A stretch of DNA of 41,959 nucleotides, taken from the IMG/VR virus record IMGVR_UViG_2690316153_000014, positions 1-41,959 of that record. The stretch is one strand, 5' to 3'. Of the stretch, positions 20,661-41,236 are shown piece by piece. The notes under the pieces were generated by a model. The model did no database searches and was not told where the DNA came from. It worked only from the letters and a program-made list of their open reading frames with translations. Every line of letters begins with the position of its first letter. Within the stretch, counting starts at the first letter, position 1. The stretch is from a virus. Its lineage: Duplodnaviria; Heunggongvirae; Uroviricota; Caudoviricetes. A program made the translations under genes and the position numbers.

Positions 20661-21523
20661 AGTATGTCTTTATTGAAAAACATCAGGCTGAGTTCAGCAT
20701 CAAAGCAATGTGCCGCGTGCTCCGGGTGGCCCGCAGCGGCTGGTATACGTGGTGTCAGCGGCGGACAAGGATAAGCACGCGTCAGCAGTTCCGCCAACAC
20801 TGCGACAGCGTTGTCCTCGCGGCTTTTACCCGGTCAAAACAGCGTTACGGTGCCCCACGCCTGACGGATGAACTGCGTGCTCAGGGTTACCCCTTTAACG
20901 TAAAAACCGTGGCGGCAAGCCTGCGCCGTCAGGGACTGAGGGCAAAGGCCTCCCGGAAGTTCAGCCCGGTCAGCTACCGCGCACACGGCCTGCCTGTGTC
21001 AGAAAATCTGTTGGAGCAGGATTTTTACGCCAGTGGCCCGAACCAGAAGTGGGCAGGAGACATCACGTACTTACGTACAGATGAAGGCTGGCTGTATCTG
21101 GCAGTGGTCATTGACCTGTGGTCACGTGCCGTTATTGGCTGGTCAATGTCGCCACGCATGACGGCGCAACTGGCCTGCGATGCCCTGCAGATGGCGCTGT
21201 GGCGGCGTAAGAGGCCCCGGAACGTTATCGTTCACACGGACCGTGGAGGCCAGTACTGTTCAGCAGATTATCAGGCGCAACTGAAGCGGCATAATCTGCG
21301 TGGAAGTATGAGCGCAAAAGGTTGCTGCTACGATAATGCCTGCGTGGAAAGCTTCTTTCATTCGCTGAAAGTGGAATGTATCCATGGAGAACACTTTATC
21401 AGCCGGGAAATAATGCGGGCAACGGTGTTTAATTATATCGAATGTGATTACAATCGGTGGCGGCGGCACAGTTGGTGTGGCGGCCTCAGTCCGGAACAAT
21501 TTGAAAACAAGAACCTCGCTTAG
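20657..21523 (+). CDS. insF: IS3 OrfB (InsF-type DDE transposase catalytic subunit); start overlaps the orfA stop (ATGA)
   Basis: 288-aa ORF with an RNase-H-fold DDE integrase core; the overlap with orfA fits the usual IS3 -1 frameshift fusion arrangement. Confidence 0.9.
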
Positions 21524-21674
21524 GCCTGTGTCCATATTACGTGGGTAGGATCACGCAGGGGTCGGCCCATTTGAGCTTCAGATAGGAACGTTTGAATTCC
21601 TTTCACAAAATACATCACATACTGAACGTGAACATTCCCACTTTGATCTTAAGGCCAAAAAGTATGCAGGACTA

Positions 21675-23393
21675 ATGATTTTTAGGGATAGCTTGAGAGT
21701 ATTACCTTATGGTCGAGTAGATAATGATTTCTTCCAGATAGAAGAAAGACGTTCATGGAATGCTGGGCGATATTATTGGTCTAATAGAAGGATTTTTGGT
21801 TATATTGGAATTACTCAATCCAGTAATAAAGAGCTGAAAGATAAGTCGGGGAGAGAGGGATTCATAAGAAACCAGGCTGCAAGAGAACTGAAAACTATTA
21901 TATCTAATTTGTTAACTGAACTTGCTGATAGATTTTTTGGTTCACGTTCTGATGACCGTAAAGAGCTTTTAGAACAAGTTAAGCGTGAAAAAGAGTTAAG
22001 AAAATCTGCTCAACAACAAGCTCGAAAATCAACACAAAAAAGTTTTTCAGAAGCTTTGAAGAATCAGACACCAGTTCTTGATGCTTCCTTGGAGGCTGTT
22101 AAAAGGCTGAAAACTAAGCTTGATAAAACTGATGGTTCGTTAGATTTAAACTATCTTAAAATTATAGACAGTGATCTTACAAACTTAGATGCGTTGCGCA
22201 GTGAAATTAAAACGCCTATCAAACCTCCAAAACTTGGAATGTATGAAGAGAAATATAGAGACTACAGAGATAAATTTAATGAGTTCTCTGCGTATATTCT
22301 ACAAATGAAGTTAGCAATTAATAAACTTGATTCTGAATTAAATAAACTTGAGCCTTCATTGTCAGCGAAAAATCACCTTGAAAAAAATCAAGGTATTATT
22401 AATTCTAAACTAACTAAGTTTAATAACACGATAGAGGAGAAGATACATTCTCTTTTAAAAAAATGGGCCGATGAAATAAAGGTTGATCGAAGTGATTATT
22501 ATGCTAAAACTATATCAGTTGTTGATTCAATAGATAATGATTCACAAATTGAAAATGTGTTTAATTTGCTCGATAGTTTATATGTTGAGTCAGTTGATAC
22601 CCTAACTTTCAAATATCAATCAATAATAAAAGGTCTCGATAGATTATTTGAAGGTATAAACTTAGATTCAGCATTCTCATTATCTGAAGAAGAACGCTCA
22701 TATTTTGAAGAAAAAGCTAAAAGTTTAAACGCGCTTGCACAGTTAGGTATTAGTGTTGAGATAATATCTCATGAACTTGAAGAAATGGATTCTATGGTAA
22801 CCAGAGGACTAAACTCTCTTCCTACTTCTGTAAAAGAACACCCTGGTTTTTCATTGGCGTTAAATGCTCACAGATCGCTTACTCAACAAATACGTTTCTT
22901 ATCACCTTTGAAAATATCAGGTTATCAATCCAGGCAGAGAATAACTGGAAAAAATATCATGGATTATGTCCTGAAGTTCTTTGGGGAGCGTTTCGAACGG
23001 CAACGAATAACTATTGAATTTAGTGAAGAGTTTAAGCAAATCGCAATAACAGATATACCATCAAGGATCTATCCTGTTTTTACTAATATTATCAACAATG
23101 CAATGTATTGGGTCAGTCTGTCAAATAATAGGCTCATAAAGATTGGTTTTGTGAATTCTTTGGTTATCATAGCAAATTCTGGTCCGGCAATTGATACCGA
23201 TGATATCCCGCGACTATTTGAACTATTTTATAGCAAAAGAGCAAATGGACATGGGGTAGGTCTGTATCTATGTCGAGAAAACCTTGCTGTTGCACATCAT
23301 AAAATATGGTATTCAGAACCTGATGAAGGCGATAACTATTTAATAAAAGATGGCGCTAATTTTGTGATCCAGTTCAATGGAGTGGAGTTCTAA
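21675..23393 (+). CDS. cytoplasmic histidine-kinase-like protein (coiled-coil N-terminal region, H-box-like ISHELEEM, C-terminal HATPase_c/GHKL domain); possibly 5'-truncated by IS3
   Basis: C-terminus carries N box (VFTNIINNAMYWV), G1 (IIANSGPAIDTDD), F (LFELFYSKR) and G2 (GHGVGLYLC) motifs. No transmembrane segment. The frame stays open upstream of the ATG back into the IS3 right end (stop at 21546-21548). AT-rich codon usage. Confidence 0.6.
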   Translation: MIFRDSLRVLPYGRVDNDFFQIEERRSWNAGRYYWSNRRIFGYIGITQSSNKELKDKSGREGFIRNQAARELKTIISNLLTELADRFFGSRSDDRKELLEQVKREKELRKSAQQQARKSTQKSFSEALKNQTPVLDASLEAVKRLKTKLDKTDGSLDLNYLKIIDSDLTNLDALRSEIKTPIKPPKLGMYEEKYRDYRDKFNEFSAYILQMKLAINKLDSELNKLEPSLSAKNHLEKNQGIINSKLTKFNNTIEEKIHSLLKKWADEIKVDRSDYYAKTISVVDSIDNDSQIENVFNLLDSLYVESVDTLTFKYQSIIKGLDRLFEGINLDSAFSLSEEERSYFEEKAKSLNALAQLGISVEIISHELEEMDSMVTRGLNSLPTSVKEHPGFSLALNAHRSLTQQIRFLSPLKISGYQSRQRITGKNIMDYVLKFFGERFERQRITIEFSEEFKQIAITDIPSRIYPVFTNIINNAMYWVSLSNNRLIKIGFVNSLVIIANSGPAIDTDDIPRLFELFYSKRANGHGVGLYLCRENLAVAHHKIWYSEPDEGDNYLIKDGANFVIQFNGVEF

Positions 23394-23394
23394 T

Positions 23395-25143
23395 ATGACA
23401 GTGGCAAATTATAATTCTCTTGTCCAGAAAACTTTCTGCGAAAATGCAATTCGTTCCGTTGTCATGATTGATGACGATTTTCTGACGTATTCTGAATCAA
23501 TCAGGGCGTTGAATAACGAAGTTGATTTAGACTACAACAAAATTGACTCATCTAAACGAGCCGCTACTCTTGAGAGCTTTTTTCAATCTAAAAATATGAT
23601 TTGTGATGTTGACAATGGTTCTGTTAATTTCGATGTGGATCGGATTAGAAAATCAGATCTTATTATTGTAGATTATCATCTTGATAATAATGCACCTGAT
23701 AAAACACTTAAACTATTACAAGATTTGAAAGACTCCGATCATTTAAATATGATTGTAATATATACTAGAGAGAATTTAGAAACGGTTTGGATGCAGATAT
23801 CATCGACTCTCAAAGGTGCTCTGGATATCAACAGCTTGATCATTGACTACGATAATGAAGATGTCCAAAGTTATTGGGAAGACGTTGTATTACCGAACTT
23901 AAATGATAATGGTAATAAAGCTCTCACAAGAGATGAAACAATAGCCTATATTAAAGACAGTAAGCCTTGTAGAAGAATTAAAAGATTAATACATGATGAT
24001 GCTGTGTTGGAGGATCAAAAGGATAAAAACTTCATTGCAAAAATGATTGCAGAATATGCTGTGTCTAGAAATGCAATTATTTCTAGCAACACATCTGGCA
24101 ATGTCATTCGGGGTGATGAAAGCGGAGTAAAATGGATTCAATGTGGTAATATCTTTGTCTCCCTATTTCATAAGGTTCAAGATGATCATGAAAACGATGG
24201 AGATAGGATTTGGCAAACTCTCAATGATTCTCTCATTGAATGGAAACCATCTTATTATCAGTTAATAAAATCTGAAATTCAGAATGCAATCGAAGCTGAG
24301 GCTTTATCTTTTGTAAATCATTTGGCTAACGATCATTACGGTCAAGCTGCGTGGTTAAATGAGATATTAAAATCAGACTCGCCTGATATTAGATGTAGAA
24401 ATATTGACTTTGTATTTGGTAATTTATCAGAAGAGCTTTATCAAAGACTTAAAAATAATAATACGCTGGATGAATTTATCAAAAGTGTTTTTGATAGCTA
24501 TTCAAATGAATACGCTAACAGCGGAGTTGCTGCATTGCTCCAATATTGCTCTTCAAAAATGGATCTGCCATCAAATAATGATACTTATCACGAAATGTAT
24601 CATGCTTTAAATATGAATTTGTCTTCAAAGAATTTTGAAGATGGTCATATTTCTACTGGCACTATTTTCTTTGATACAGAGTCGAACAAATGGTATTTAT
24701 GTGTATCTGCGGCATGTGATTTGGTTCCTACTCAGGGTAACGACCCTCACCATGTAAGATTAAGTCCGCACAGGCTCATTAAAGTTCTGGAGCTTTTTAA
24801 CGCCAGTCAGAGTAAAGCATTGCCATTTGCTGAACATTCGAAATATATATATGTAATGCATAAAAATCAAAGAAAATATCTCTCTATTTTCGAAGGGGAT
24901 AAAACGCTTCCTGTTGTTGATTATATGGTGGTGTTGAATCATGGAACAACAGTTGATGGCGAAGAAAAAAATATTATTTCTGCCGTGTTTTTAAGTAATA
25001 TGGATGGCAACGTGCAAAATGTTCCTGTCCGACTCAAACTTAAATCTCAACTGAGAACTGGTTATGCAGAAAGATATCAGGCTATAGCGTCTCAGTATAG
25101 CTCAAGGATTGGTGTGGATTATGTATCAATGATGCTACCATAA
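23395..25143 (+). CDS. response-regulator-like protein: N-terminal receiver (REC) domain plus a roughly 440-aa C-terminal domain of unknown function
   Basis: REC hallmarks: acidic cluster VVMIDDDF, candidate phospho-acceptor Asp in LIIVDYHLD, conserved Thr in MIVIYTRE. GGAG Shine-Dalgarno 7 nt upstream; the ATG lies 2 nt after the kinase stop (an alternative in-frame ATG is at 23377). I recognise no DNA-binding or enzymatic motif in the C-terminal domain. Confidence 0.6.
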   Translation: MTVANYNSLVQKTFCENAIRSVVMIDDDFLTYSESIRALNNEVDLDYNKIDSSKRAATLESFFQSKNMICDVDNGSVNFDVDRIRKSDLIIVDYHLDNNAPDKTLKLLQDLKDSDHLNMIVIYTRENLETVWMQISSTLKGALDINSLIIDYDNEDVQSYWEDVVLPNLNDNGNKALTRDETIAYIKDSKPCRRIKRLIHDDAVLEDQKDKNFIAKMIAEYAVSRNAIISSNTSGNVIRGDESGVKWIQCGNIFVSLFHKVQDDHENDGDRIWQTLNDSLIEWKPSYYQLIKSEIQNAIEAEALSFVNHLANDHYGQAAWLNEILKSDSPDIRCRNIDFVFGNLSEELYQRLKNNNTLDEFIKSVFDSYSNEYANSGVAALLQYCSSKMDLPSNNDTYHEMYHALNMNLSSKNFEDGHISTGTIFFDTESNKWYLCVSAACDLVPTQGNDPHHVRLSPHRLIKVLELFNASQSKALPFAEHSKYIYVMHKNQRKYLSIFEGDKTLPVVDYMVVLNHGTTVDGEEKNIISAVFLSNMDGNVQNVPVRLKLKSQLRTGYAERYQAIASQYSSRIGVDYVSMMLP

Positions 25144-25215
25144 TTATTATATTTTAGGCGTGGTGATTTTTTTTTCGCCATGCCTATTTTATATTTATCA
25201 TCACAATGATGTTGT

Positions 25216-25632
25216 TTATTTTTGTTTAAGTCTTCTAAGCTTCATGCATTCTAATGAGAATAATAATAGAGTTGTGCTGTATATAAAGCCAGAGTTAGTT
25301 AATAACTTTAAATTTAATGCTTCAGGATTTTCACTGAGAAAGTGAAAGGCATAAACTAAGTATACAGCTAAAGTAGCCGTTCCAATTGTTGGTCCAATAT
25401 CGCCTTGATCATGAGGTTCAAGGTTTACATTGAACTTGAAGATTAGCCATTCAAATCCCCAAGTAAAAAAAACAACTAATATCATGGCTGCGAATAATTT
25501 CGCGATGTTATCTGCTGATGGATTCATCAGAACAGATTGTTTCTGAAAAAATTCACAAAGTGAGAGTCCGAAAAAAATAAAAAAAAGTGGTCTGGAACTA
25601 AATTTTTCAAAAACTTTGAATAGGGTTTCCAT
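25216..25632 (-). CDS. small integral membrane protein (about 4 predicted TM helices), unknown function
   Basis: 138-aa ORF with four hydrophobic stretches; AT-rich; sits between the REC-protein gene and the integrase. Confidence 0.45.
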   Translation of the reverse strand: METLFKVFEKFSSRPLFFIFFGLSLCEFFQKQSVLMNPSADNIAKLFAAMILVVFFTWGFEWLIFKFNVNLEPHDQGDIGPTIGTATLAVYLVYAFHFLSENPEALNLKLLTNSGFIYSTTLLLFSLECMKLRRLKQK

Positions 25633-25670
25633 TTTCTTTACCTTCAGGATTATATTAGCTATTCTGATAC

Positions 25671-26900
25671 TTAGGCTACCAGAGCATTTGATCTTTGAGC
25701 TTGAACGTAATCACTCCACCATTGCATCAAACTCTGTCGCTCTATCAGATATTCTGCACGATTGTATGCTGCGATAATTTCATCTTTTTTCGAGTGGGCA
25801 AGCGCTGCCTCAAGAACTTCAGCTCTGAATTTACCAGACTCCTCTGCCGCTGTTCGTGCAATAGAACGCATACCGTGAGCTACAAGCTCGCCTCCGAACC
25901 CCATTCGGATGATAGCTGCGTTGGCTGTTTGTTCATGCATATGATTAAGAGGCGCTTTTATGCTGGGGAAAACCCATTCTCTATGCCCACTTATTGATTT
26001 CATTAATTCAAGGATGCGCAAAGCTTCTTTACTCAAAGGAACTTTGTGAAGCTTTTTCATTTTCATGAAATCAGCAGGAATGTTCCAAATGCTGTTGGTT
26101 GTATCAATATCAGACCACCTTGCGCGAACGGCTTCACCCGGACGAACCCATGTCAACAATTGCCATTCAATTAGCATACGTGTTTCCAACCGGATTGACG
26201 CATTCGTCAAAGATTCCATAAACCTTGGCAATTCGCTTGGGGGAAGGGCAGGCATATTTTGCTTTTTTGGTTTACTGAATCTTTGACCAAGGTTGTCAGC
26301 CGGGTTGAACTCAATAAGTTCTTCAGTAGCTGCCCACCGGAAGATTTCATTCAGACGTGAAATGATACGGCGTAGAGTTTCCAATACGCCTCGTTGCTCA
26401 ATAGGATCAAGGTGTTGTTTTAAGAGCTTAGGTCGGATCTCATTGATAGGGACATTACCCAGACCGGGAAAGACATTTCTCTCTAAGCTGCGCCAGATGT
26501 CTGCTGCATGGTCTTGTGAGATACCTGATGTCTTTACCTTCTCATCTAACCATTTCCGCGCTACGGCTTGGAGAGTGTGCTCAGTAGCACTCTTTAATGC
26601 CTTCGCCTTATCGTTGTTATGGATTTGGGGATCAACACCATTTGCCAGAAAGGAGAGATATTCATCACGTAAGGCTCTGGCTCTTGCAAGGGTAAGGTGA
26701 GGATATGTCCCAAGGCTCATTTTGGTTCTTTTCTTGCTCACTGGTACTGTATACCTGAAATACCAATTTTTCTTGCCTCCTTTCGCCAAAGGAGCGATTC
26801 GTAGAATCAGACCATCACCGTCAAACAAGTTGATTTCTTTATCGGCTGGCTTGGTGCTTTTGATTTCAGTGTCAGTGAGCTTCTTAGCGATTTTTGCCAT
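25671..26900 (-). CDS. P4-type (CP4-57 IntA-like) tyrosine integrase
   Basis: N-terminal arm-binding region MAKIAKKLTDTEIKSTKPADKEINLFDGDGL...WYFRY and C-terminal catalytic region with HxxR and terminal Tyr. Start set at the Met with a GAGG Shine-Dalgarno (track ORF begins 14 codons earlier at 26942). Confidence 0.8.
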   Translation of the reverse strand: MAKIAKKLTDTEIKSTKPADKEINLFDGDGLILRIAPLAKGGKKNWYFRYTVPVSKKRTKMSLGTYPHLTLARARALRDEYLSFLANGVDPQIHNNDKAKALKSATEHTLQAVARKWLDEKVKTSGISQDHAADIWRSLERNVFPGLGNVPINEIRPKLLKQHLDPIEQRGVLETLRRIISRLNEIFRWAATEELIEFNPADNLGQRFSKPKKQNMPALPPSELPRFMESLTNASIRLETRMLIEWQLLTWVRPGEAVRARWSDIDTTNSIWNIPADFMKMKKLHKVPLSKEALRILELMKSISGHREWVFPSIKAPLNHMHEQTANAAIIRMGFGGELVAHGMRSIARTAAEESGKFRAEVLEAALAHSKKDEIIAAYNRAEYLIERQSLMQWWSDYVQAQRSNALVA

Positions 26901-27065
26901 TTTGGGACCCTCGGTTTTTGGACCCTTCTTAGTGGGTCCCATTCAGGGTGCCATAACTCGTAGTTCTCAGCAATTCTCACTGGACGACAATAGACGTAAA
27001 AAAGCCCGCAGAGCTTGTGCTGTGTGGGCTTAGTAGACTTCATTGAACTTCAAACAACTAAAAAG

Positions 27066-28597: not shown

Positions 28598-29776
28598 TCA
28601 CTTCTTCATTCCAGATTCCATTGCGGTTTTCCCGTCGTATTCAGCCAGGTATTTACCGTAATTGCGGAACAGCATTTCCGGCCCCTTATGCCCCATCTGC
28701 CCGGCAAGCCAGAAAAGGTTTACACCCTGGCTAATGTGTCTGGTGGCGAATGTGTGGCGCGTCTGGTACGGGTTACGGTAGCGCACACCAGCTTTTTTCA
28801 GGGTCGGCACCCATGCTTTTTTACGGATAGCGTCGGCGTTCGTCCAGGGATCTCCCGTTTTCGGATCGCTGAATATGAACTCACTTTTCATAAAGGTGTA
28901 TTGCTTCTGCGCCTGCAGGGCCGCCAGCGCCTCACTGTTCAGCTCCACCTTACGGGTACCGGCTTTTGTCTTGGTGCCTTTAAGTACCCCTACGACACTG
29001 GCCGCCTGTATGTGCGCTGTATTACCTATAAAGTCGATATCGGTCCAACGTAATGCGCATAGCTCAGAGCTGCGTAGCCCTGTATTGAAGGCGAAGCGGA
29101 ACAGATTCTGCCATTCCTGATACTTGCAGTGCTGATATATGGCACTGGTTTCCGCAGGCGCAAACGGATCAACTTCGTAATCGTCGGCGTTCGGTTTACT
29201 GTCGACCACGTGATACCGGCTGGCGCTGACAAGAGTTACCGGGTTAATAGTCAACAGGCCATCAGTTACAGCCTCATCAATGGCGCTGCGCAGAAATGAC
29301 AGGTTATTCCTGATTGTTTTCAGCTTAGTTTTTCGGCTGGCTATCCAATTTTTTAGTACCGCAGGCGTCAATTCTGTTACATGTAGTTTATGTAGTTCTG
29401 ATAGTGCTGATAGACATTTTTCGTAACCGCCAATGGTTGACGGCGACAGATTGCGGTTCATGCAAATTTTCAGGTATTCATCAAGATAGGACTTAATATT
29501 TTTGGTTTTCTTTACTACACCGAATAACTCCAGTTTTTTGGAACTGGGGAAATATTTCGCATATTCAAACGTTCCGCTGGCGATCTGATTTTGTATCTCC
29601 CCTAGCAGGCGCTCAGCATATTTAATACCACGTGTATTTGCCTCAAGCCGAGACAGGGGCTCCCTGCAAAGAACCCCTTTATATGTGAAAGTGATAACTA
29701 GTGTTGAAGCAGTTTTATGCTTACGAATAGTTACTCCTCTTGGCAGAGATAATAATCCTTGTTCTTTCTTGCCCAT
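28598..29776 (-). CDS. lambdoid prophage tyrosine integrase
   Basis: 392-aa ORF with catalytic-domain residues (R in LRSSELCALRW, HTFATRH, terminal Tyr region); an excisionase-like ORF overlaps its start, as in lambda int-xis. Confidence 0.8.
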   Translation of the reverse strand: MGKKEQGLLSLPRGVTIRKHKTASTLVITFTYKGVLCREPLSRLEANTRGIKYAERLLGEIQNQIASGTFEYAKYFPSSKKLELFGVVKKTKNIKSYLDEYLKICMNRNLSPSTIGGYEKCLSALSELHKLHVTELTPAVLKNWIASRKTKLKTIRNNLSFLRSAIDEAVTDGLLTINPVTLVSASRYHVVDSKPNADDYEVDPFAPAETSAIYQHCKYQEWQNLFRFAFNTGLRSSELCALRWTDIDFIGNTAHIQAASVVGVLKGTKTKAGTRKVELNSEALAALQAQKQYTFMKSEFIFSDPKTGDPWTNADAIRKKAWVPTLKKAGVRYRNPYQTRHTFATRHISQGVNLFWLAGQMGHKGPEMLFRNYGKYLAEYDGKTAMESGMKK

Positions 29777-30098: not shown

Positions 30099-30377
30099 TT
30101 ACTTCCTTTTTATGGCTCGTAATTTTTTCAGGTGCTTTTCCTGCTCAGTGTCCGCGAGAATTTTGCGGTACTCCTGGTGGTCAATATGTTCGAACAGGCA
30201 GTTTAACTCACCAATGCGTACCCGCCCGGATCGTCCGTCCATCCGTCGAAAGAACACTGAGTGCTCAGTGATGCGAGTAATCACCACGGGGTATCCGGCT
30301 CTGTCCGTGTATATCTGACCGCGTTGAATCAAAGCGAACATGTGGTTATCCCCATCGACAAATTGAGAACACAACAA
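30099..30377 (-). CDS. hypothetical prophage early protein
   Basis: Minus-strand ORF in the early-left gene string; no recognised motif; start uncertain. Confidence 0.35.
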   Translation of the reverse strand: MLCSQFVDGDNHMFALIQRGQIYTDRAGYPVVITRITEHSVFFRRMDGRSGRVRIGELNCLFEHIDHQEYRKILADTEQEKHLKKLRAIKRK

Positions 30378-30464
30378 ACGCTACTGCGAATACCACCCCC
30401 AGAGTTACGATTGCATCAGGCCAGCTCATTGATTCACCTCCTGCGGCGTCCTGGTATTCGATTT

Positions 30465-31033
30465 TCATTCCGGATGCTCCTGAGCCACATTGAAATCGCC
30501 ATGATCACGACAAGGCATCACAACAAATTCAGGATTGCCATACATTGAGTTGATGATGGAATCAAACTGAATTCTGACCGCTTGCCCGTCACCGGAGGAA
30601 CGTAACTGGACGGGAATAAATTTACGCTCACGACCAAACATCTTCTCTGGATAACTCAGGTAACCCGCCTGGATCACCGGGTGTGTACAGAGGTCAAATT
30701 TTTTCGGAATGATGCGTTCCAAATCCGGAAAACAACCGTCCACCAATTTAATGCCGGTAATGGACAGCCGGCGCTGAAACTGGTCGCGATGAACAGGATC
30801 GGCTCTTTACTAAAAATCAGCTCTGTCGTTTCGGCTTTGGCCGGGACGCCACCTTCGAACTGGACAATGATGTTTTTCTTCGTCCGGATGCCGTGAGTCA
30901 TGCGCAGTGCTACGAAACCATTGGTTGCCTCAATATGTTTTGGCGTGATGTGAAGACCGTTCAGGTAATAACGAACGTCGTTTTTAGCAGCGCACACCAG
31001 AGCGGCGCGAATAAGTTTTGACTGGATGATCAT
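30465..31033 (-). pseudogene. beta-sliding-clamp (DnaN)-like gene covering clamp domains II-III, split by a frameshift (track ORFs 30674..31033 and 30465..30746)
   Basis: Upstream ORF contains DVRYYLNG and ATNG (DnaN has HQDVRYYLNG and ATDGHRLAV). Downstream ORF, in another frame and open upstream to 30806, contains KLVDGCFPDLERIIPK and EFVVMPCRD (DnaN has KLVDGRFPDYRRVLPK and C-terminal AYVVMPMRL). The two frames overlap by about 70 nt. Confidence 0.5.
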
Positions 31034-31779
31034 GCTTTATCCTCCCATCCGATTACCTGAAAAAGCCCCATCTTCGGGTGATACCAGCGTGTGCCGCGTG
31101 GTTCAGCCTCTGACATCATTTGGTGGAACGCCGCCATAAATGTCTCAAGCTCGACGACAGCCCTGCGAGACAACAGACCGTCCGGAGTCATAAATTCGTG
31201 CGTGTCGGTAGGGATGTGGTAGGCGTTGACCAGATTCCGACACTTGGCGTCACTCATTCCGCTTTTGGCTACCACCTGGCGGTAACCGACATATCCGGTG
31301 CGCATTGTGCCGCGTTTGATGTTCTCCACAGCTTTGGTGACCGTTTCGATCTTCTCTTCAACATGACTCAGGCGCTTCTGCTGGCGAACGGCATCGGCGG
31401 CCATTGCAGCGATCATCTCCATTTCCGTCAGCGGCGCGTGAGTTCGGAAATAGCTGTTAACCAGTTCGCGCTGAACCTGCCATGCAAGAGCATCGTTAAA
31501 AGGCTTCGTCAACATCAGGTAACCAGACTCGAAAAGAATGATCCCTTTGGCAGTTCGCGCGGCAAAGGCATCAGAAAGTGACTCCGTACGTATTACGTCC
31601 GCAGTCATTTCAAGAAAATCCACCCCTTCGATAAAGTGAGAACGGTTGCGGTTAAACGCAGCACGGGCGGTACCTTCCGGGCGCTGGTGGACGTCATCAA
31701 TTATTGCAAATGTCACAACACGCTGACCGCGATATTCGATTACCGGAAACTGTTTGTTGTTGATGGTTACAATATTCAT
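31030..31779 (-). CDS. phage antirepressor-like protein (ORF6N/AntA-type N-terminal domain)
   Basis: ORF starting MNIVTINNKQFPVIEYRGQRVVTFAIIDDVHQRPEGTARAAFNRNRSHFIEGVDF... with GGAG Shine-Dalgarno; domain call from motif resemblance only. Confidence 0.4.
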   Translation of the reverse strand: MNIVTINNKQFPVIEYRGQRVVTFAIIDDVHQRPEGTARAAFNRNRSHFIEGVDFLEMTADVIRTESLSDAFAARTAKGIILFESGYLMLTKPFNDALAWQVQRELVNSYFRTHAPLTEMEMIAAMAADAVRQQKRLSHVEEKIETVTKAVENIKRGTMRTGYVGYRQVVAKSGMSDAKCRNLVNAYHIPTDTHEFMTPDGLLSRRAVVELETFMAAFHQMMSEAEPRGTRWYHPKMGLFQVIGWEDKA

Positions 31780-31822: not shown

Positions 31823-32650
31823 TTACTTAACCTGAATAAATGGTGTGTTGGCACCGCTGGTCATGTATTGCGGCAGTGTACCGTTCCACTTGTTGATGGC
31901 TTCCAGCTCCATAACACCGGGGTTCTGGCGCAGAGCTTCACCGCGTAAACGAATAGCATCGGCTTCGGCCTGGGCTTTTGTGCGAATCGCATCTGCCTGT
32001 CCGGCAGCTTCCGCGCGCAACATGTTGGCTTCCGCTTCGCGCTGTTTTACTTCCTGCTCGCGTTGCAGGGTTTTCTGGTTCGCCGTGACTTTGGCATTAA
32101 TGCTGTCGATAACAGTAGGTGGGTACTCCGGCTTACCCACATATGAGAGGCTCATTACCTGAATACCGATGGGCGTCATTTCTTCCTGAATGTCTTTAAG
32201 AGCTGCATCCAGCAGCTCAGACTTGCCGCCGTCGATAAATTTGTCGGTGGTCATTTTGCTGGCCAGTCGGTTGAGTGCGTCGGCTATCTTCTGGCGCAGG
32301 TCGGTGTCGGTAATGTCGTCCACGCCTTTGCGGTAGGTCTGAAAGACTGTGGTAACTTTGGATGGATCAACTTTGTAGGCCACGCCGATGTGATAGCCGA
32401 TGGTTGTACCGTCACTCATCTGGAAACTGAATGGATCATCGTAGGTCTTCATCTGCTTAAAGGTCGGGAAGATGTAAACCTCAGTGTTCCATCCCGTCCA
32501 GTAGCGCCCAACACCGACCACTTCACCGACGCCTTTATCGTCGCCCAGTTTGTTTACTTTGATGCCCACATTACCAGGCTCAACGCGATCGCAACCGACA
32601 AGGCCAATGGTCGGCAGAACAAGGGCTAAAGCAAAAAGTAATTTTTTCAT
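31823..32650 (-). CDS. SPFH/band-7 family lipoprotein
   Basis: Lipoprotein signal peptide with lipobox (LVGC), then a prohibitin-like region and an Ala/Glu/Gln-rich coiled-coil tail. Confidence 0.55.
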   Translation of the reverse strand: MKKLLFALALVLPTIGLVGCDRVEPGNVGIKVNKLGDDKGVGEVVGVGRYWTGWNTEVYIFPTFKQMKTYDDPFSFQMSDGTTIGYHIGVAYKVDPSKVTTVFQTYRKGVDDITDTDLRQKIADALNRLASKMTTDKFIDGGKSELLDAALKDIQEEMTPIGIQVMSLSYVGKPEYPPTVIDSINAKVTANQKTLQREQEVKQREAEANMLRAEAAGQADAIRTKAQAEADAIRLRGEALRQNPGVMELEAINKWNGTLPQYMTSGANTPFIQVK

Positions 32651-34425: not shown

Positions 34426-34646
34426 GTTCTTTGCTCCTTAAATGCATCGCATGCGCTTCTGGCGTATTGTTGTGCCAGTAAAAAGATATCATCCGAAAGT
34501 TCATCACATTCTTCATCACCGGAAGCCGAAATGATTAACCCCGCTTCAAGCAGTACGGCAATGTGATGAAAAGTTGTCTCCGGTTCGTTGGTAAGGCCTT
34601 TGAACATTTTCATCTTATGCTTCCTCCTGATTTTGTTTATAAGCAT
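34422..34646 (-). CDS. hypothetical small protein
   Basis: 74-aa ORF overlapping the neighbours in operon fashion. Confidence 0.3.
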   Translation of the reverse strand: MLINKIRRKHKMKMFKGLTNEPETTFHHIAVLLEAGLIISASGDEECDELSDDIFLLAQQYARSACDAFKEQRT

Positions 34647-35034
34647 CAGTCAATAACAACATTGGATCACAGCCAAGAACATTAGCCAGAGGGATAAGCA
34701 TGCTGATGGTTGGTTCGTACTCTCCGCTCTCCCACTGGATGATAATTTCTTCATCGAGATCGAGCAGCCTAGCGAGTTCGGCGGTTGTTAAGCCGCAGGT
34801 TTCGCGTTGGGTGCGAATCCGATTCTGGGAATTAATAGCTAAATTTTGTTTGCATAAACGTGACGCGGTGAGGCTATATTTTTGAGTTACAGCCAGGATG
34901 GAGCTGGCAAGTTCAATTAACTCAGGGTTATTGCTGCTATACAGTAGTGCACCAGTCCCTACTAAGAGCTGAATATTCTCAAGAGCATCGTGCTGATTTG
35001 TTGGTAATCCCATATACGATGACATTTTTCTCAT
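34615..35034 (-). CDS. XRE-type HTH protein (C-terminal helix-turn-helix), first gene of the leftward early operon
   Basis: C-terminal segment LTTAELARLLDLDEEIIIQWESGEYEPTISMLIPLANVLG resembles an XRE/Cro-type HTH; gene starts just downstream of the putative left operator region. Confidence 0.45.
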   Translation of the reverse strand: MRKMSSYMGLPTNQHDALENIQLLVGTGALLYSSNNPELIELASSILAVTQKYSLTASRLCKQNLAINSQNRIRTQRETCGLTTAELARLLDLDEEIIIQWESGEYEPTISMLIPLANVLGCDPMLLLTDAYKQNQEEA

Positions 35035-35168: not shown

Positions 35169-35861
35169 TTATGCAAAACGGTGTAGTGTCATAGGCCAAC
35201 TGACAATTACTTTTCCGTCAATGTGAAGTTGTTCGAAGTCTTCCGGTTCGATAGCCCAATCCTTGTAAGCTGGGTTGTCAGATATCACCGTTAGAGTATC
35301 TTTGATTTTTTGAAGTCTTTTGATGTGCGATGTTCCAGAGTATGTAAAGGCGTATATACCATCACCATTAAATGTGCGAACTGATACATCTACAAATACC
35401 AAGTCTTCAGGGTCTATTGTGCCTTTCATACTGTCGCCGTGGGCGTTTATTGCTTTGATTGCTGATGCTGGTCTGCCGCCAAAAACTCTTGATGCGTATC
35501 CTGGTTCTATCGCTATAGATCTGACAATATCAGGAAAATCAGAGTTATAACTACCAGGTCCGCAACTATATCTGATGTCTAAAACATCCACGACATACGA
35601 ATCAGTAACCCAATCTTCAGAAATGTTACGTATTTGGTGTGAGTCTGCAGAGGTCACGATTTCCATTGGGCCAACACCCGATGCGAGCCATTCCGGGTTA
35701 ACGCCCAAAACTTTTGCTATTTCGACTGTTTTTCTGGAACCGTTGGCTTTGTTAAGTAGTTGATTAACACTGGACTGAGCCATACCCACTTCTTTGGCCA
35801 GCCTACCTTGCGTAAATTTTGCGTTGCGCATAGCTAAATCAAGTCGTTCTGAAAATGTCAT
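35169..35861 (-). CDS. CI-like prophage repressor with N-terminal HTH and C-terminal LexA/S24 autopeptidase domain
   Basis: HTH region QGRLAKEVGMAQSSVNQLL and C-terminal S24 features (GDSM serine motif, downstream Lys); divergent from a Cro-like gene. Confidence 0.8.
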   Translation of the reverse strand: MTFSERLDLAMRNAKFTQGRLAKEVGMAQSSVNQLLNKANGSRKTVEIAKVLGVNPEWLASGVGPMEIVTSADSHQIRNISEDWVTDSYVVDVLDIRYSCGPGSYNSDFPDIVRSIAIEPGYASRVFGGRPASAIKAINAHGDSMKGTIDPEDLVFVDVSVRTFNGDGIYAFTYSGTSHIKRLQKIKDTLTVISDNPAYKDWAIEPEDFEQLHIDGKVIVSWPMTLHRFA

Positions 35862-36952: not shown

Positions 36953-38611
36953 ATGGAGCTGACGATCACGCCGAATTTTGCACAGGAACGAGCGTTAAAC
37001 ATGTTGCGCCGTGACTGGAAGGCAAACGACACCTTCATGGTTTACTCGCCAACAGGTAGCGGTAAAACGGGTCTGGCAGCCTTCATAGTTGCTGGTTTTG
37101 TCAGCCGTGGTATGCGTGTTCTGTTCTGTGTTCCGTACACCATCCTGATTGGTCAGACGGCTAATCGGTTCGTGCAGTATGGTTTACCTGGAGATGAAAT
37201 CGGTTATATCTGGGCGGATCACCCGAACTACGATCCGGACCGGAAAATTCAGATTGCCAGCGCTGACACGCTTATTCGTCGTGTTTTTCCTGAAAATATC
37301 GATCTGCTGATTATCGACGAAGCGCACCTGCGTAAAAAACGCATCCTGAAGGATATCGAACGTCTGCGCGGCAAAGGCGTAAAGGTGATTGGCCTGTCGG
37401 GTACTCCGTTTTCTCCGTTCCTGGGCAAATACTATGACCGACTGATTAAGCCGACCACCATCGGCGAGTTAATCCAGCGTGGCGATCTGAGTAAATACGA
37501 ATTTTACGCGCCAACTAAGCCGGATCTGAAAGGTGTTAAAACCACATCTTCGCTTGAGTACGGCCGCGATTACAACGAAACACAGCTGGCTGAAATCATG
37601 TGCGGCTCTACGCTGGTGGGCGACATCGTACAGAACTGGCTGGAGAATGGTCGGGATTTACCTACCATCGCTTTCTGCGTCAACGTAGCTCACGCCAATT
37701 ATCTGACAATCCAGTTTAACCTGGCGGGTGTTAACGCTGAGGTAATGACCGCCGACACTCCGGTAGATGAGCGCCAGACCATCATTCACCGCTTTGAAAC
37801 CGGTGCAACGAAAATCATCGTTAGTGTGGGCGTTCTGGTGGCCGGCTTTGATAGTGACGTTCGTTGCATCATCTACGCCAGGCCAACAAAAAGCGAAATT
37901 CGCTGGTTGCAGGCTCTCGGGCGTGGGCTGCGCACCGCACCGGGTAAAGAGTCCTGCCTTATCTTCGATCACAGCGGCACCGTGCACCGTTTGGGTTATC
38001 CGGATTCAATCGAGTACGACGAGCTTCCCGGTAAGTCTGACGGCATGGAGGAAAGCGCGCGCCGGGCAGTTGAGGAACGGGCCGAAAAACTGCCACATGA
38101 ATGCCCTCAATGCCACTACATGAAGCCAGCAGGCGTCTATGTTTGCCCGAAATGTGGACACAAGCCGCTGCGAGGTGAAGACGTTGATACTGACACTAGC
38201 CGCAAACTTAATAAGCTGGGTAAAAATCAGCATCAGTCGACGAAGGCAGAGAAACAGTCCTGGTGGAGTCAGATCAAATTTTATCAGCGCCAGCGTGCTT
38301 CGCTGGGGCGTCCAGTCAGTGACGGATGGTGTGCTCACACTTTCCGGGAAAAGTTCGGTGAGTGGCCTGACGGACTGAGTAACTTTCCGATGGAAATTAC
38401 CCCTGAGGTAAATAACTACATCAGACACAAACTGATCCGGTTTGCCAAAGGCCACCAGCGGGTTCAGAAGGTCACTGAAAACGCACAAACAACGATTGAT
38501 TTATCTCAGGAACGTGATGAACGACGTGAGATACCGGCAGGCAGTGAGGCCTGGCGCATCATGCAGGCAAAGCACCAACTCCAGAAAAATATAAACAGTC
38601 TGAGTCAGTAA
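36953..38611 (+). CDS. SF2 (DEAD/DEAH-type) helicase, prophage replication module
   Basis: Motif I SPTGSGKT, motif II LIIDEAHL, motif III SGTP, motif VI QALGRGLR, plus a C-terminal Cys cluster (CPQCH...CPKCGH). Confidence 0.75.
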   Translation: MELTITPNFAQERALNMLRRDWKANDTFMVYSPTGSGKTGLAAFIVAGFVSRGMRVLFCVPYTILIGQTANRFVQYGLPGDEIGYIWADHPNYDPDRKIQIASADTLIRRVFPENIDLLIIDEAHLRKKRILKDIERLRGKGVKVIGLSGTPFSPFLGKYYDRLIKPTTIGELIQRGDLSKYEFYAPTKPDLKGVKTTSSLEYGRDYNETQLAEIMCGSTLVGDIVQNWLENGRDLPTIAFCVNVAHANYLTIQFNLAGVNAEVMTADTPVDERQTIIHRFETGATKIIVSVGVLVAGFDSDVRCIIYARPTKSEIRWLQALGRGLRTAPGKESCLIFDHSGTVHRLGYPDSIEYDELPGKSDGMEESARRAVEERAEKLPHECPQCHYMKPAGVYVCPKCGHKPLRGEDVDTDTSRKLNKLGKNQHQSTKAEKQSWWSQIKFYQRQRASLGRPVSDGWCAHTFREKFGEWPDGLSNFPMEITPEVNNYIRHKLIRFAKGHQRVQKVTENAQTTIDLSQERDERREIPAGSEAWRIMQAKHQLQKNINSLSQ

Positions 38612-38612
38612 G

Positions 38613-39581
38613 ATGAAAACAGCAGATGCAGCGAAAGGCCGCTGGCCTGAAATATTAGAGCACTTCGGTCTGCCGCCGATAACCGGAAAAAATCACTTCA
38701 AGGGTGAATGCCCGGTATGCGGTGCACGTGGCAAGTTCCGAATTGACGACCGCGACGGTGCAGGAACGTGGATCTGTGTATGTGGTAGTGGCGATGGTAT
38801 GAAACTTGTCACCCTGACACAGGCGAAGCCATTTAACGAGATTTGTACCGAAATAGACCGCCTGATCGGTAATGATTACCAACGGGTTAAAATCCCGGTA
38901 ACCAGCAGCGCCACCAGCTTACGCAAACGGGTATTGAGCAAGTTTTCAAAACTGGAGGCACTGCGTGGTACATCCGGCGCAGCGTATCTTAATTCTCGTG
39001 GAATATTCAGTCTTCCTGCTGAGGCGATCCGGTTCAATGCCAGGCAGAGACACAACGGGAGTGTGTTCCAGTCTCTTTATTCACTTGCTACGGACGATAA
39101 AGGGGAGTTGTGCTATCTGCACCAGACTCTGCTTGATGGTGATAAAAAAGCAGATATCGGTAGCAGTGCAAAGCGCCTCAAATCCCTGCAGGAAGATAAC
39201 TATTTGGATCACGCTCGTTCTGTAGCTATCCGCATGTTTCCTGTCGCCAGCACTCTGGGTATCGCCGAAGGCATCGAAACAGCGCTGTCAGCGCACCAGA
39301 TTTATAACGTGAACACCTGGGCAACCATTAACAGCGGCTTTATGAAAAAGTTTCGCGTACCAGCTGGTGTTCTGCACCTGATTATTTTTGCCGACCGTGA
39401 CGAGAACAGCGCCACCGGGCTGGCTGCGGCTTGCGAATGTGCTCATGCCAATCTGATGGCAAAGAATGACCTGCAGCGCGTGAGCGTGTACTGGCCGGAT
39501 CACGATGATTTCAACAATATGCTCATGAACGGTGATCAGGTTCGAGAGCTGGTTTTCCATAAGAAAAAGGCGGTTGCGTAA
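38613..39581 (+). CDS. primase-type protein (zinc ribbon plus Toprim-like region)
   Basis: CPVCGARGKF...WICVCGSGDGM zinc-binding motif at the N-terminus and an acidic DRDE segment downstream; start is 2 nt after the helicase stop. Confidence 0.65.
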   Translation: MKTADAAKGRWPEILEHFGLPPITGKNHFKGECPVCGARGKFRIDDRDGAGTWICVCGSGDGMKLVTLTQAKPFNEICTEIDRLIGNDYQRVKIPVTSSATSLRKRVLSKFSKLEALRGTSGAAYLNSRGIFSLPAEAIRFNARQRHNGSVFQSLYSLATDDKGELCYLHQTLLDGDKKADIGSSAKRLKSLQEDNYLDHARSVAIRMFPVASTLGIAEGIETALSAHQIYNVNTWATINSGFMKKFRVPAGVLHLIIFADRDENSATGLAAACECAHANLMAKNDLQRVSVYWPDHDDFNNMLMNGDQVRELVFHKKKAVA

Positions 39582-40438
39582 TGCGTACTGATAATAACGA
39601 ACATAAAGCACTATTCACCATCCCGACGGCAGCGTACAGCTCCGCCCTCGCAAACATCAAGCCCCTGCCAGAGCAACGGAGAATCACCGGGCATAAGCAG
39701 ACTGATGCTTATCTTTGGGTGCTGGAGGTTATCCGTCTGAACGAACCCGCACATCTGGATGCTGCTGAGGCTGCGCTGGTGAAAATTAAAATTTCCCCAA
39801 AAGAGGCTCAGGAACGCTATTCGCGTTATCTGCTGGCGAATGGTTACGAACCTTTCCAGGTTGCGTTCGGCATCATCGGCATGGATAACCCTGCGCAGGT
39901 TATCAGGAACGCCCGGGAGAACATCAAAAAAGCGGCATCAGTCAGGGCTACGTTTGGTAGCTATGAAGCAGCGCTCGAAGATGTGGAAGCAGAGCGGGTC
40001 ATCAGGTCTTCCCAGAAATTTATCAACGATCATCTCTGGGGCTGGACTGCGGCAGAGAAAAAAGCCGGAAGCATTGGCGGCAGCCGCATGAACGAAATTG
40101 ATGAACAGCGTCGGGCATTTGTTGATGGATATCGCGATGTGCTGCCTGAGCCTTATACGCTGTCTGATGTTGTTCGCGAGTTCGTTTACTGGGACTGGCT
40201 CTACAGTGTTCGCCACACTGCAACTAAAGAACAGGGCGATGAGTTTGGTTACTCTGAGCATCACGAATCGGTATATGACCGGGAGCGCTACCTTGAAAAA
40301 TTGCTGGCAACCATCAAACCGGTGACACGCGCTGAAGCCGTGGAGGTGTGCCGCTGGTTTCTGGCAAGTGGTAAGGGTGAATGCATGGAAGACGACGGTG
40401 CAGCGGTCATTCTCAATCTGGTTGGTGAGTGCGAATAA
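39581..40438 (+). CDS. hypothetical protein (285 aa), replication/regulation region
   Basis: ATG overlaps the primase stop; its own stop overlaps the Q-like start (TAATG); no recognised motif. Confidence 0.45.
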   Translation: MRTDNNEHKALFTIPTAAYSSALANIKPLPEQRRITGHKQTDAYLWVLEVIRLNEPAHLDAAEAALVKIKISPKEAQERYSRYLLANGYEPFQVAFGIIGMDNPAQVIRNARENIKKAASVRATFGSYEAALEDVEAERVIRSSQKFINDHLWGWTAAEKKAGSIGGSRMNEIDEQRRAFVDGYRDVLPEPYTLSDVVREFVYWDWLYSVRHTATKEQGDEFGYSEHHESVYDRERYLEKLLATIKPVTRAEAVEVCRWFLASGKGECMEDDGAAVILNLVGECE

Positions 40439-40830: not shown

Positions 40831-41027
40831 CGCGGTCCGCAAAAAGTATGTCAGTATGTTAAGAGTGGTTACTACGCCACACAGCTTAAACCAGCCGCAA
40901 GCGGGTTTTTTTATGGCTGAAATCGGTCCAGTACAGTAAACGCGCTGGCGGCGGTGAATACCGGTCTTTCAGCTTGCTGGCTTTTTCGACAAGAGTTATT
41001 GGTGTGTCACGTTAACCGGAAAAAGAC

Positions 41028-41225: not shown

Positions 41226-41236
41226 AGGCTTTTTTA
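41212..41236 (+). terminator. intrinsic terminator
   Basis: Stem GCCTTCA/TGAAGGC (41212-41218 with 41223-41229), loop GTCC, followed by TTTTTTATTT. Confidence 0.5.

What the first reader, a model, noticed from the sequence alone, without database searches (positions are those of the whole stretch)
30465..31033. Prophage-encoded beta-sliding-clamp (DnaN)-like gene, two-domain and frameshifted
The upstream ORF matches DnaN domain II (DVRYYLNG, ATNG). The downstream ORF, in a different frame, matches the domain II/III boundary and the clamp C-terminus (KLVDGCFPDLERIIPK, EFVVMPCRD). The combined product would be about 185 aa, roughly clamp domains II plus a short domain III. A phage-borne truncated clamp homologue could mimic or poison the host clamp. 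Here it looks inactivated by a frameshift, or the sequence carries an indel error.
Basis: partly seen in the sequence, partly recalled or inferred. Interest (0 to 1): 0.6.

Follow-up and report, generated by a model that had tools for sequence, protein, structure and literature searches.

The report
Frameshifted prophage mini beta-clamp gene
This is a recently broken (one base lost) prophage copy of a widespread but functionally unstudied phage gene. The gene encodes a cut-down DNA sliding clamp that keeps the partner-binding pocket but lacks the parts needed to close a ring.

Summary
Window 30465-31033 (minus strand) is one gene for a 189-aa DnaN-like protein, split by a single-base deletion between 30797 and 30796 (first base of codon 80).

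The deletion is real, not a sequencing error. The same 119-aa truncated product occurs on 203 contigs from independent assemblies. An intact allele that differs only by that base also exists. RefSeq already marks the locus "frameshifted" and names intact copies "beta clamp domain-containing protein".

Profile comparisons show the architecture is DnaN domain II plus only the C-terminal half of domain III. Domain I and the half of domain III that carries the dimer interface are missing. Almost every residue of the clamp-binding-motif pocket is 80-99% conserved, and the protein is basic (pI 9.1).

My best inference is a non-ring, pocket-only module that binds clamp-binding-motif peptides as a decoy or adaptor. 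In this window it is dead. Short phage polIII-beta homologues were noted in 2011. I found no functional study, so their function remains unknown.

The parts
30465..31033 (-). Whole pseudogene: a mini beta-clamp (DnaN domain II plus the C-terminal half of domain III), 189 codons when repaired.
   Evidence: RefSeq ECE110019_RS17465 has the same ends and is flagged 'frameshifted'.
30797..31033 (-). Native codons 1-79, the N-terminal part of the DnaN domain II homologue. It includes DVRYYLNG (30956-30979) and ATNG (30917-30928).
   Evidence: Residues 5-114 align to E. coli DnaN 136-253.
30796..30797 (.). Site of the single-base deletion. The G that is the first base of codon 80 (GCT, Ala80) is missing between these two bases.
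   Evidence: Alignment A1. The intact allele in L054 is identical to the window gene except for this base.
30674..30796 (-). Out-of-frame tail of the truncated 119-aa product: 40 nonsense codons plus a TGA stop.
30465..30794 (-). Native-frame codons 81-189 plus stop, now unreachable from the start codon. This covers the end of domain II, the linker KLVDGCFPDLERIIPK (30702-30749), the half-domain III module, and the C-terminal strand EFVVMPCRD (30504-30530).
   Evidence: The module matches DnaN 311-366.
31030..31779 (-). Upstream gene for an ORF6N-domain protein (249 aa). Its stop codon overlaps the clamp start codon (ATGA).
   Evidence: The same 4-nt overlap occurs in 101 of 103 related loci.
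30346..30468 (-). Downstream 40-aa hydrophobic ORF whose start overlaps the clamp stop codon by 4 nt. It is part of the same leftward early operon.

Best explanation
Window 30465-31033 (minus strand) is a recently inactivated pseudogene of a phage 'mini beta-clamp'. It sits in the leftward early operon of a lambdoid prophage, between an ORF6N-type gene and the DUF4222/xis/int end. A one-base deletion in codon 80 truncates the product after 79 native residues, so no functional protein is made in this strain. All of that is shown. The intact family protein (about 188 aa) consists of DnaN domain II plus only the C-terminal beta-alpha-beta-beta-beta half of domain III. It lacks domain I and the first half of domain III, the two parts that form the head-to-tail dimer interface (Ile78/Phe106 and Ile272/Leu273/Glu298/Glu304). 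It keeps nearly every residue of the clamp-binding-motif (CBM) pocket, which lies between domain II and the C-terminal half of domain III. It is also basic rather than acidic. This anatomy is shown. The inferred mechanism is that the protein cannot close a ring the canonical way. Instead it works as a free-standing CBM receptor that binds QLxLF-type tails of clamp partners (polymerases, clamp-loader delta, Hda, MutS/MutL and others). It would then either compete with the host clamp for them (decoy) or tether them to phage DNA without a clamp loader (adaptor).
For: Pseudogene:
- A single G deletion is seen against the intact homologue.
- The identical 119-aa product is on 203 contigs, and the eight loci read are 100% identical across the gene.
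- The intact allele L054 differs only by the missing base.
- RefSeq flags the locus as frameshifted.

Family and constraint:
- 64 full-length relatives were found across Enterobacterales.
- A profile search of 1.84 billion representatives gave 1071 hits at E<=1e-10. Nearly all of the best 150 are 170-215 aa.
- dN/dS among intact alleles is 0.06-0.16.

Fold:
- AlphaFold2 pLDDT 90, pTM 0.86.
- The Foldseek PDB top 35 hits are all beta clamps.
- BFVD contains many 180-210-aa phage proteins with TM 0.7-0.8.

Architecture:
- Domain II corresponds to DnaN 137-253 (hhalign 98.4%).
- The C-terminal module corresponds to DnaN 311-366: hhalign 96.2% versus 1.4% for the first half; HMM 28.3 versus 3.7 bits.

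Pocket (residue list from the review PMC11139829), conservation in 142 representatives:
- R152 99%, L155 96%, T172 90%, G174 99%, H175 89%, P242 98%.
- R246 as R/K 90%, V247 as V/I/L 88%, M362 97%, P363 92%.
- R365 as R/K 87%, Y323 87%, N320 as N/Q 79%.

Charge and context:
- pI 9.1 (family median 8.3) versus 5.25 for DnaN.
- In virulent siphophages the gene is a lone opposite-strand insert among structural genes, not part of a replication module.
Against: - No binding, oligomerisation or phenotype data exist. No complex prediction could be run.
- Pocket residues are also the most conserved core residues of DnaN, so part of their conservation could be structural.
- R176 and L177 are not conserved (V/I and L/A/M). 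In the E. coli clade the His175 equivalent is S, F or C. The ligand may therefore differ from canonical CBMs.
- These phages depend on host Pol III, so indiscriminate sequestration of alpha or delta would hurt the phage.
- A non-canonical oligomer, for example four 1.5-domain arcs, is not excluded.
Confidence: 0.6

Rival explanations
1. The intact family protein is a true processivity clamp. It would oligomerise into a closed ring, for example four 1.5-domain arcs making 12 half-domains, or a mixed ring with host beta. It would support phage DNA replication.
Against: Both canonical ring-closing surfaces are missing: domain I and DnaN 254-310. The half-domains of a clamp alternate in orientation, so a head-to-tail ring of three-half units would need a non-native interface (my inference from the known clamp fold). 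The protein is basic, unlike loader-dependent ring clamps (trend noted in PMC3201878). The gene is a solitary moron in phages with no polymerase or loader nearby.
Confidence: 0.15
2. The mini-clamp is the dedicated partner of the protein encoded immediately upstream, an ORF6N/Rha-type DNA-binding protein. It would bind that protein's conserved C-terminal HPx(M/F/V)GxF element and act as a regulatory co-factor. Comparable cases are T4 gp45 with gp33/gp55 and Mu MuC with beta.
For: In 101 of 103 enterobacterial loci the clamp start codon overlaps the upstream stop. In 75 of 103 loci the upstream protein ends with HPx(M/F/V)GxF. This holds although the proteins differ: ORF6N or Rha N-domains with a shared C-domain, a distant C-domain, and an unrelated 84-aa Lar-like zinc ribbon. 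The motif residues are kept through synonymous codon changes. A phage regulator using the clamp for transcription is documented for Mu (PMC12867686, listed).
Against: AlphaFold places WYHPKMGLFQ as a confident beta-hairpin inside the folded C-domain (pLDDT 80-91), not as a free tail. 28 of 103 loci and all distant members examined lack the motif. The loci are not phylogenetically independent, and the last codons may simply travel with the clamp gene in mosaic recombination.
Confidence: 0.15
3. The frameshift is an assembly or sequencing error, or is bypassed by programmed ribosomal frameshifting, so a full-length protein is made here.
For: A single-base indel is the commonest sequencing artefact. 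An A_AAA_AAT heptamer exists downstream in the first frame.
Against: The identical allele is found in at least 8 independent assemblies, 203 contigs, a metagenome and the finished genome. The deletion is not in a homopolymer (GATCGCTG to GATCCTG). The only slippery-like site lies about 30 codons downstream. Shifting there would replace the conserved KLVDGxFPD linker with nonsense. The vast majority of homologues encode one continuous ORF.
Confidence: 0.03
4. The protein poisons the host clamp directly, by forming mixed dimers with DnaN monomers.
For: Phages are known to target the clamp, for example Twort Gp168 (structure 7evp).
Against: It lacks both surfaces that DnaN uses to dimerise (interface residues from PMC11139829).
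Confidence: 0.05

Closest known systems
Bacterial beta sliding clamp DnaN (E. coli, PDB 1MMI/2POL; TIGR00663; Pfam PF00712+PF02767+PF02768)
   Same: It is homologous and has the same fold over DnaN 137-253 and 311-366. The motifs DVRYYLNG, ATxGH, KLVDGxFPD..R(V/I)xP and VVMPxR are shared. The CBM pocket residues are conserved.
   Different: It has 189 aa instead of 366. There is no domain I and no first half of domain III, so the dimer-interface residues I272, L273, E298 and E304 are absent. Its pI is 9.1 against 5.25. It scores 19 bits against the TIGR00663 cutoff of 137.65. It is phage-borne and dispensable.
Short phage polIII-beta homologues noted by Kazlauskas & Venclovas 2011 (PMC3201878). 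These correspond to RefSeq 'beta clamp domain-containing protein' and PHROG 3007.
   Same: It is the same kind of protein: a phage-encoded truncated DnaN homologue, often in genomes without a polymerase gene. The window gene matches phrog_3007 at E 6e-65. Intact alleles carry the RefSeq name.
   Different: The 2011 paper describes the short forms as covering 'the second and third domains'. This family (170-215 aa) keeps only half of the third domain. I found no functional study. The 2016 follow-up calls the role of stand-alone clamp homologues an open question. Here the gene is also broken.
beta*, the UV-inducible short form of E. coli DnaN made from an internal start (Skaliter, Paz-Elizur, Livneh and co-workers, 1996). 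Cited from my own memory; not found in the searchable library.
   Same: It is an N-terminally truncated clamp lacking domain I.
   Different: beta* keeps all of domains II and III and was reported to act as a clamp, whereas this protein lacks half of domain III. beta* comes from the host gene, not from a phage.
Herpesvirus monomeric processivity factors (HSV UL42 and relatives)
   Different: They have two full domains, are eukaryotic viral proteins, and are always paired with a cognate viral polymerase (PMC4889955). There is no detectable sequence relationship.

Membership tests
Bacterial beta sliding clamp (DnaN, TIGR00663) | Three homologous domains (N-terminal, central, C-terminal), about 366 aa. 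| tested here: not met
   Only DnaN 137-253 and 311-366 are represented. TIGR00663 scores 19.1 bits against a cutoff of 137.65. Only PF02767 is detected, in 15 of 22 members.
Bacterial beta sliding clamp (DnaN, TIGR00663) | Head-to-tail homodimer ring through domain I (I78, F106) and the first half of domain III (I272, L273, E298, E304). | tested here: not met
   The segments carrying all these residues have no counterpart in the family (residue list from PMC11139829). The oligomeric state itself is not testable with these tools.
Bacterial beta sliding clamp (DnaN, TIGR00663) | Hydrophobic clamp-binding-motif pocket (subsites I and II). | tested here: met
   Of the 18 distinct pocket residues, 14 are conserved at 79-99% in 142 representatives, counting conservative substitutions. 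Exceptions are R176, L177, V344 and M364. In the window allele the H175 equivalent is Phe.
Bacterial beta sliding clamp (DnaN, TIGR00663) | Clamp fold (beta-alpha-beta-beta-beta repeats forming an arc). | tested here: met
Bacterial beta sliding clamp (DnaN, TIGR00663) | Acidic protein loaded by the clamp loader that confers processivity on Pol III. | not testable with these tools
   Only the charge could be computed: pI 9.1 against 5.25, which points away from it.
Short phage beta-clamp-like proteins (PHROG 3007; RefSeq 'beta clamp domain-containing protein') | One ORF of about 170-215 aa with a domain II homologue and a C-terminal (V/I)(V/I)MPxR strand. | tested here: not met
   The sequence belongs to the family (phrog_3007 E 6e-65; 98-100% identical intact alleles). 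In this window, however, the ORF is split by a 1-nt deletion, so it is a pseudogene member.
Short phage beta-clamp-like proteins (PHROG 3007; RefSeq 'beta clamp domain-containing protein') | Phage or prophage location. | tested here: met
   It lies in a lambdoid prophage early-left operon next to DUF4222, small ORFs and an integrase. Relatives occur in 221 phage records and in IMG/VR contigs.
RusA-like Holliday junction resolvase (the label carried by PHROG 3007) | RusA fold or RusA family signature. | tested here: not met
   There is no RusA hit in Pfam or NCBIfam. The fold and profiles are beta-clamp. The label is a misannotation.
Known anti-phage defence systems (PADLOC-DB) | Match to any defence-system protein model. 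| tested here: not met
   No hit for the clamp or its immediate neighbours. Only generic HTH hits appear for a regulator at 34615-35034.

The most novel reading that the evidence does not exclude
The intact family may be a previously unrecognised class of phage host-manipulation factor. It would be a monomeric, ring-incompetent clamp fragment pared down to exactly the partner-binding pocket. It would intercept or redirect the host clamp interactome (polymerases, mismatch repair, Hda, the delta wrench) rather than attacking the clamp itself. In enterobacterial prophages it might be paired with the upstream ORF6N/Rha-type protein through that protein's conserved HPx(M/F/V)GxF hairpin. The polymorphism at the His175-equivalent pocket residue (H/S/F/C/R/Y) would then reflect tuning of ligand specificity.
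Probability: 0.35. Interest if true: 0.7.

Novelty: already known. Interest (0 to 1): 0.35.

Why it matters
For this window it matters little. The gene is a dead copy, and RefSeq already annotates it as frameshifted.

The family behind it is more interesting. More than 1000 representative clusters (at 50% identity) of short clamp homologues exist in phages and prophages of many Proteobacteria. They are under purifying selection, and I found no experimental function for them. The literature has asked why polymerase-less phages carry stand-alone clamp homologues (PMC4889955).

The anatomy worked out here gives that question a concrete, testable form: the pocket is kept, the ring interfaces are deleted, and the charge is basic. 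If the protein is a decoy or adaptor for clamp-binding motifs, it would be a natural minimal scaffold for the drug-target pocket of the beta clamp. It would also be a new way for phages to rewire host replication and repair.

A practical point: PHROG 3007's 'RusA-like resolvase' label is wrong and is spreading through phage annotations.

Tried and rejected
1. Sequencing error: rejected. The identical allele is in 203 contigs, at least 8 assemblies and the finished genome.

2. Programmed frameshift or two functional genes: rejected. The deletion is not at a slippery site. The only A_AAA_AAT heptamer is about 30 codons downstream and would destroy the conserved linker. Homologues are single ORFs.

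3. Retained half of domain III is the first half plus the last strand, as the first HMM alignment suggested: rejected in favour of the C-terminal half.

4. Defence-system membership: no PADLOC hits.

5. RusA-like resolvase, the PHROG label: no support.

6. Free C-terminal peptide on the upstream ORF6N protein as a cognate clamp-binding motif: weakened, because AlphaFold puts the motif in a confident beta-hairpin of a folded domain. It is kept only as a low-probability rival. That model is poor for residues 1-150 (pLDDT <50), so nothing is claimed about them.

I used the 82%-identical P0001 instead.

8. AFDB50 fold search: library unavailable.

9. Literature searches for 'beta clamp domain-containing protein', 'DnaN-like' phage, 'clamp-like protein' phage, and clamp plus decoy found no functional study. 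The serine-integrase RDF paper was irrelevant. The beta* papers are not in the library.

10. Complex or multimer prediction was not possible with the tools.

Full report
**1. The observation**

The region 30465-31033 carries two overlapping ORFs on the minus strand, in different frames: 30674-31033 (119 aa) and 30465-30746 (93 aa).

A megablast of 30300-31200 against complete E. coli genomes found a 100% match in E. coli E110019. It also found many 97-99% matches that are one base longer. In E110019, RefSeq annotates exactly these coordinates as a 'frameshifted' hypothetical-protein pseudogene. In strain JNEC-KY202 the same gene is an intact 570-nt CDS, WP_000586690.1, 'beta clamp domain-containing protein', 189 aa.

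The DNA alignment shows a single missing G after gene nucleotide 237. This is the first base of codon 80 and lies between window bases 30797 and 30796. The truncated product therefore has 79 native residues followed by 40 out-of-frame residues.

**2. A real mutation, not an error**

- The exact 119-aa truncated product is recorded on 203 contigs.
- It was read in eight places: seven NCBI assemblies (draft genomes plus the finished E110019 genome) and a gut metagenome. It sits next to three different integrases and attachment sites.
- All eight loci read are 100% identical to the window across the gene.
- The intact 189-aa sequence is on at least 1000 contigs.
- One IMG/VR contig (L054) carries an intact allele identical to the window gene except for the missing base. 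The deletion is therefore evolutionarily very recent.
- The deletion is not in a homopolymer. The only slippery-like heptamer lies about 30 codons further on, so programmed frameshifting is not credible.
- RefSeq's annotation of the near-identical E110019 prophage also marks the Q antiterminator and a TerB gene as pseudogenes. That fits a decaying prophage.

**3. What the intact gene encodes**

A single sequence gives only marginal DnaN similarity: PF02767 E 0.009, TIGR00663 E 5e-4, PDB phmmer E 0.002-0.003, always to DnaN 136-253. Family-level evidence is decisive.

- Sixty-four relatives of about 188 aa occur across Enterobacterales.
- A profile of 22 of them hits E. coli beta-clamp chains at E 1e-13. 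hhalign gives 98.4% probability for DnaN 137-253.
- A profile search of 1.84 billion representative proteins returned 7225 hits at E<=1e-3 and 1071 at E<=1e-10. Nearly all of the best 150 are 170-215 aa long.
- tblastn finds relatives in 221 phage genomes of Salmonella, Escherichia, Klebsiella, Vibrio, Burkholderia and other hosts.
- An AlphaFold2 model of an 82%-identical member is confident (pLDDT 90, pTM 0.86).
- The top 35 Foldseek hits in the PDB are all beta clamps.
- BFVD contains many 180-210-aa phage proteins with TM 0.7-0.8.
- Intact alleles evolve under strong purifying selection (dN/dS 0.06-0.16).
- About 100 of 103 related enterobacterial loci have one uninterrupted ORF. The 'two independent genes' refutation therefore fails.

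**4. Architecture**

The first profile alignment ran from domain II into the start of domain III and then jumped to the C-terminal strand. Using 142 diverse representatives, I tested the C-terminal module separately.

| Test | DnaN C-terminal half of domain III | First half of domain III | First half plus last strand |
|---|---|---|---|
| HMM score | 28.3 bits (305-366) | 3.7 bits | 20.0 bits |
| hhalign probability | 96.2%, E 2.7e-9 (311-366) | 1.4% (251-303) | not tested |

The protein is therefore domain II plus the last beta-alpha-beta-beta-beta module of domain III. DnaN residues ~254-310 and all of domain I are absent.

According to the 2024 review of the beta clamp (PMC11139829), the dimer interface is built from Ile78 and Phe106 (domain I) and Ile272, Leu273, Glu298 and Glu304 (first half of domain III). 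All of these fall in the missing parts. The same review lists the residues of the clamp-binding-motif pocket. All of them lie in domain II, the II-III linker, or the C-terminal half of domain III, which are exactly the parts retained.

Conservation of the pocket residues in the 142 representatives:

| DnaN residue | Conservation |
|---|---|
| R152 | 99% |
| L155 | 96% |
| T172 | 90% |
| G174 | 99% |
| H175 | 89% |
| P242 | 98% |
| R246 | 90% as R/K |
| V247 | 88% as V/I/L |
| V360 | 80% as I/V/L |
| M362 | 97% |
| P363 | 92% |
| R365 | 87% as R/K |
| N320 | 79% as N/Q |
| Y323 | 87% |

R176, L177, V344 and M364 are not conserved. The protein is basic (pI 9.1; family median 8.3), whereas DnaN has pI 5.25.

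**5. Context**

In the window the gene lies in the leftward early operon of a lambdoid prophage. The order, all on the minus strand, is:
- a LexA-family cI-like repressor at 35169-35861;
- small ORFs;
- an SPFH protein at 31823-32650;
- an ORF6N protein at 31030-31779;
- the clamp pseudogene;
- a 40-aa ORF;
- DUF4222;
- the integrase at 28598-29776.

The clamp start overlaps the upstream stop (ATGA) in 101 of 103 related loci. No neighbour matches a known defence family.

In virulent siphophages the gene is a solitary, oppositely oriented insert among structural genes. This is the case in the Dhillonvirus TheodorHerzl and in Klebsiella phage ZCKP8. In a marine phage it ends the early operon. 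It therefore behaves as an accessory 'moron', not as part of a polymerase or loader module.

**6. Mechanism**

Shown:
- In this strain the gene is dead.
- The intact protein is a clamp arc that lacks both canonical ring-closing surfaces.
- It retains the partner-binding pocket under strong constraint.

Inferred: it acts as a free-standing receptor for clamp-binding motifs. It would either titrate host clamp partners or tether them to DNA without a loader, and its basic charge is compatible with direct DNA binding.

I put about 0.95 on the pseudogene, family and architecture statements and about 0.4-0.5 on the pocket-receptor mechanism. The overall figure is 0.6.

Rivals:
- a non-canonical ring clamp (0.15);
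- a dedicated partner of the upstream ORF6N/Rha-type protein (0.15);
- direct poisoning of DnaN (0.05);
- sequencing error or programmed frameshift (0.03).

The partner idea came from a recurrent HPx(M/F/V)GxF element near the C-terminus of three different kinds of upstream proteins, present in 75 of 103 loci. AlphaFold places this element in a confident beta-hairpin of a folded domain. It is also absent from distant members, so I rate the idea low.

**7. Comparison with what is known**

Kazlauskas and Venclovas (2011, PMC3201878) reported that 5 of 12 phage polIII-beta homologues are short and cover 'the second and third domains'. Their 2016 survey notes that stand-alone PolIII-beta homologues occur without a viral polymerase and that their role is an open question.

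RefSeq names intact copies 'beta clamp domain-containing protein'. PHROG 3007 holds the family under the erroneous label 'RusA-like Holliday junction resolvase'. I found no functional study.

Related biology:
- Lambda raises host DnaN through an sRNA (bioRxiv 10.1101/2024.10.31.621285).
- Mu's MuC recruits the clamp for late transcription (PMC12867686).
- Staphylococcal phage Gp168 binds the clamp (7evp).
- E. coli beta* is a host-encoded, domain-I-less clamp. I cite it from memory because it was not retrievable.

**8. Verdict**

The finding is correct and well localised, but it describes an already-annotated pseudogene of a known, though uncharacterised, protein family. The contributions specific to this analysis are:
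- proof that the frameshift is a genuine, recent and circulating allele;
- the 1.5-domain architecture, with the pocket kept and the interfaces deleted.

Interest is modest for the locus (0.35) and higher for the family if the pocket-receptor model proves true.

Noticed in passing
window 30915-30917 (codon 40 of the clamp gene); loci L017-L126: The residue equivalent to DnaN His175, which bridges the two pocket subsites, is His in 63 of 96 related loci. In the E. coli 189-aa clade it is polymorphic (Ser 13, Phe 9, Cys), and Arg or Tyr occur elsewhere. The window allele has Phe40. It also has Ser146 where the family has a nearly invariant Pro. This could reflect ligand-specificity tuning or relaxed constraint.
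   Followed up: partly
window 31030-31095 (C-terminus of the ORF6N gene); loci L017-L126: Proteins encoded immediately upstream of the clamp gene end with a conserved HPx(M/F/V)GxF element in 75 of 103 loci. This holds although they belong to three different families: ORF6N or Rha N-domains with a shared, Pfam-less C-domain; a distant version of that C-domain; and an 84-aa Lar-like zinc ribbon. The stop and start codons overlap as ATGA in 101 of 103 loci. AlphaFold models the element as a beta-hairpin in a folded domain.
   Followed up: partly
phage records listed; PHROG 3007: PHROG 3007 is labelled 'RusA-like Holliday junction resolvase', but it is a beta-clamp fragment family. The wrong name has propagated to many GenBank phage genomes, for example IME207, KpV2811, Bas77 and Bcep43.
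   Followed up: yes
window 30295-30296 compared with L001 4684-5993: The finished RefSeq genome of E110019 has an IS3 element inserted in the DUF4222 gene next to the clamp pseudogene. It also places the prophage beside ypjA. The window lacks the IS3 and differs by 9 mismatches and 1 gap over 6.9 kb, so it comes from a different assembly or a sister strain.
   Followed up: partly
window 20352-26942: Between the chromosomal pqqL-ydeP region (1-21553) and the prophage lies a small island. It contains an IS3 transposase (20352-21523), a histidine-kinase-like HATPase_c/HEF_HK protein (21675-23393), a Response_reg_2 (PF19192) protein (23377-25143) and a P4-type integrase (25671-26942). The function of the HEF_HK/Response_reg_2 pair was not examined.
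   Followed up: no
L003 2918-3892 (RefSeq E110019; roughly window 40436-41400): RefSeq marks the prophage's Q antiterminator (frameshifted) and a TerB-family gene (internal stop) as pseudogenes. This suggests the whole prophage is decaying. It was not verified base by base in the window.
   Followed up: no
L114 3001-3318; Salmonella phage Fels-1 NC_010391.1 2529-2849: There are other apparently independent inactivations of the same gene. L114 has a 105-aa truncated ORF. Fels-1 retains only residues 80-187, split over two annotated hypothetical proteins.
   Followed up: no
window 36953-39581: The prophage replication module is a DEAD/DEAH (ResIII) helicase plus a zinc-ribbon/Toprim primase rather than lambda O/P. 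No polymerase gene is present in the part of the prophage seen in the window, so the phage appears to depend on host Pol III and the host clamp.
   Followed up: no
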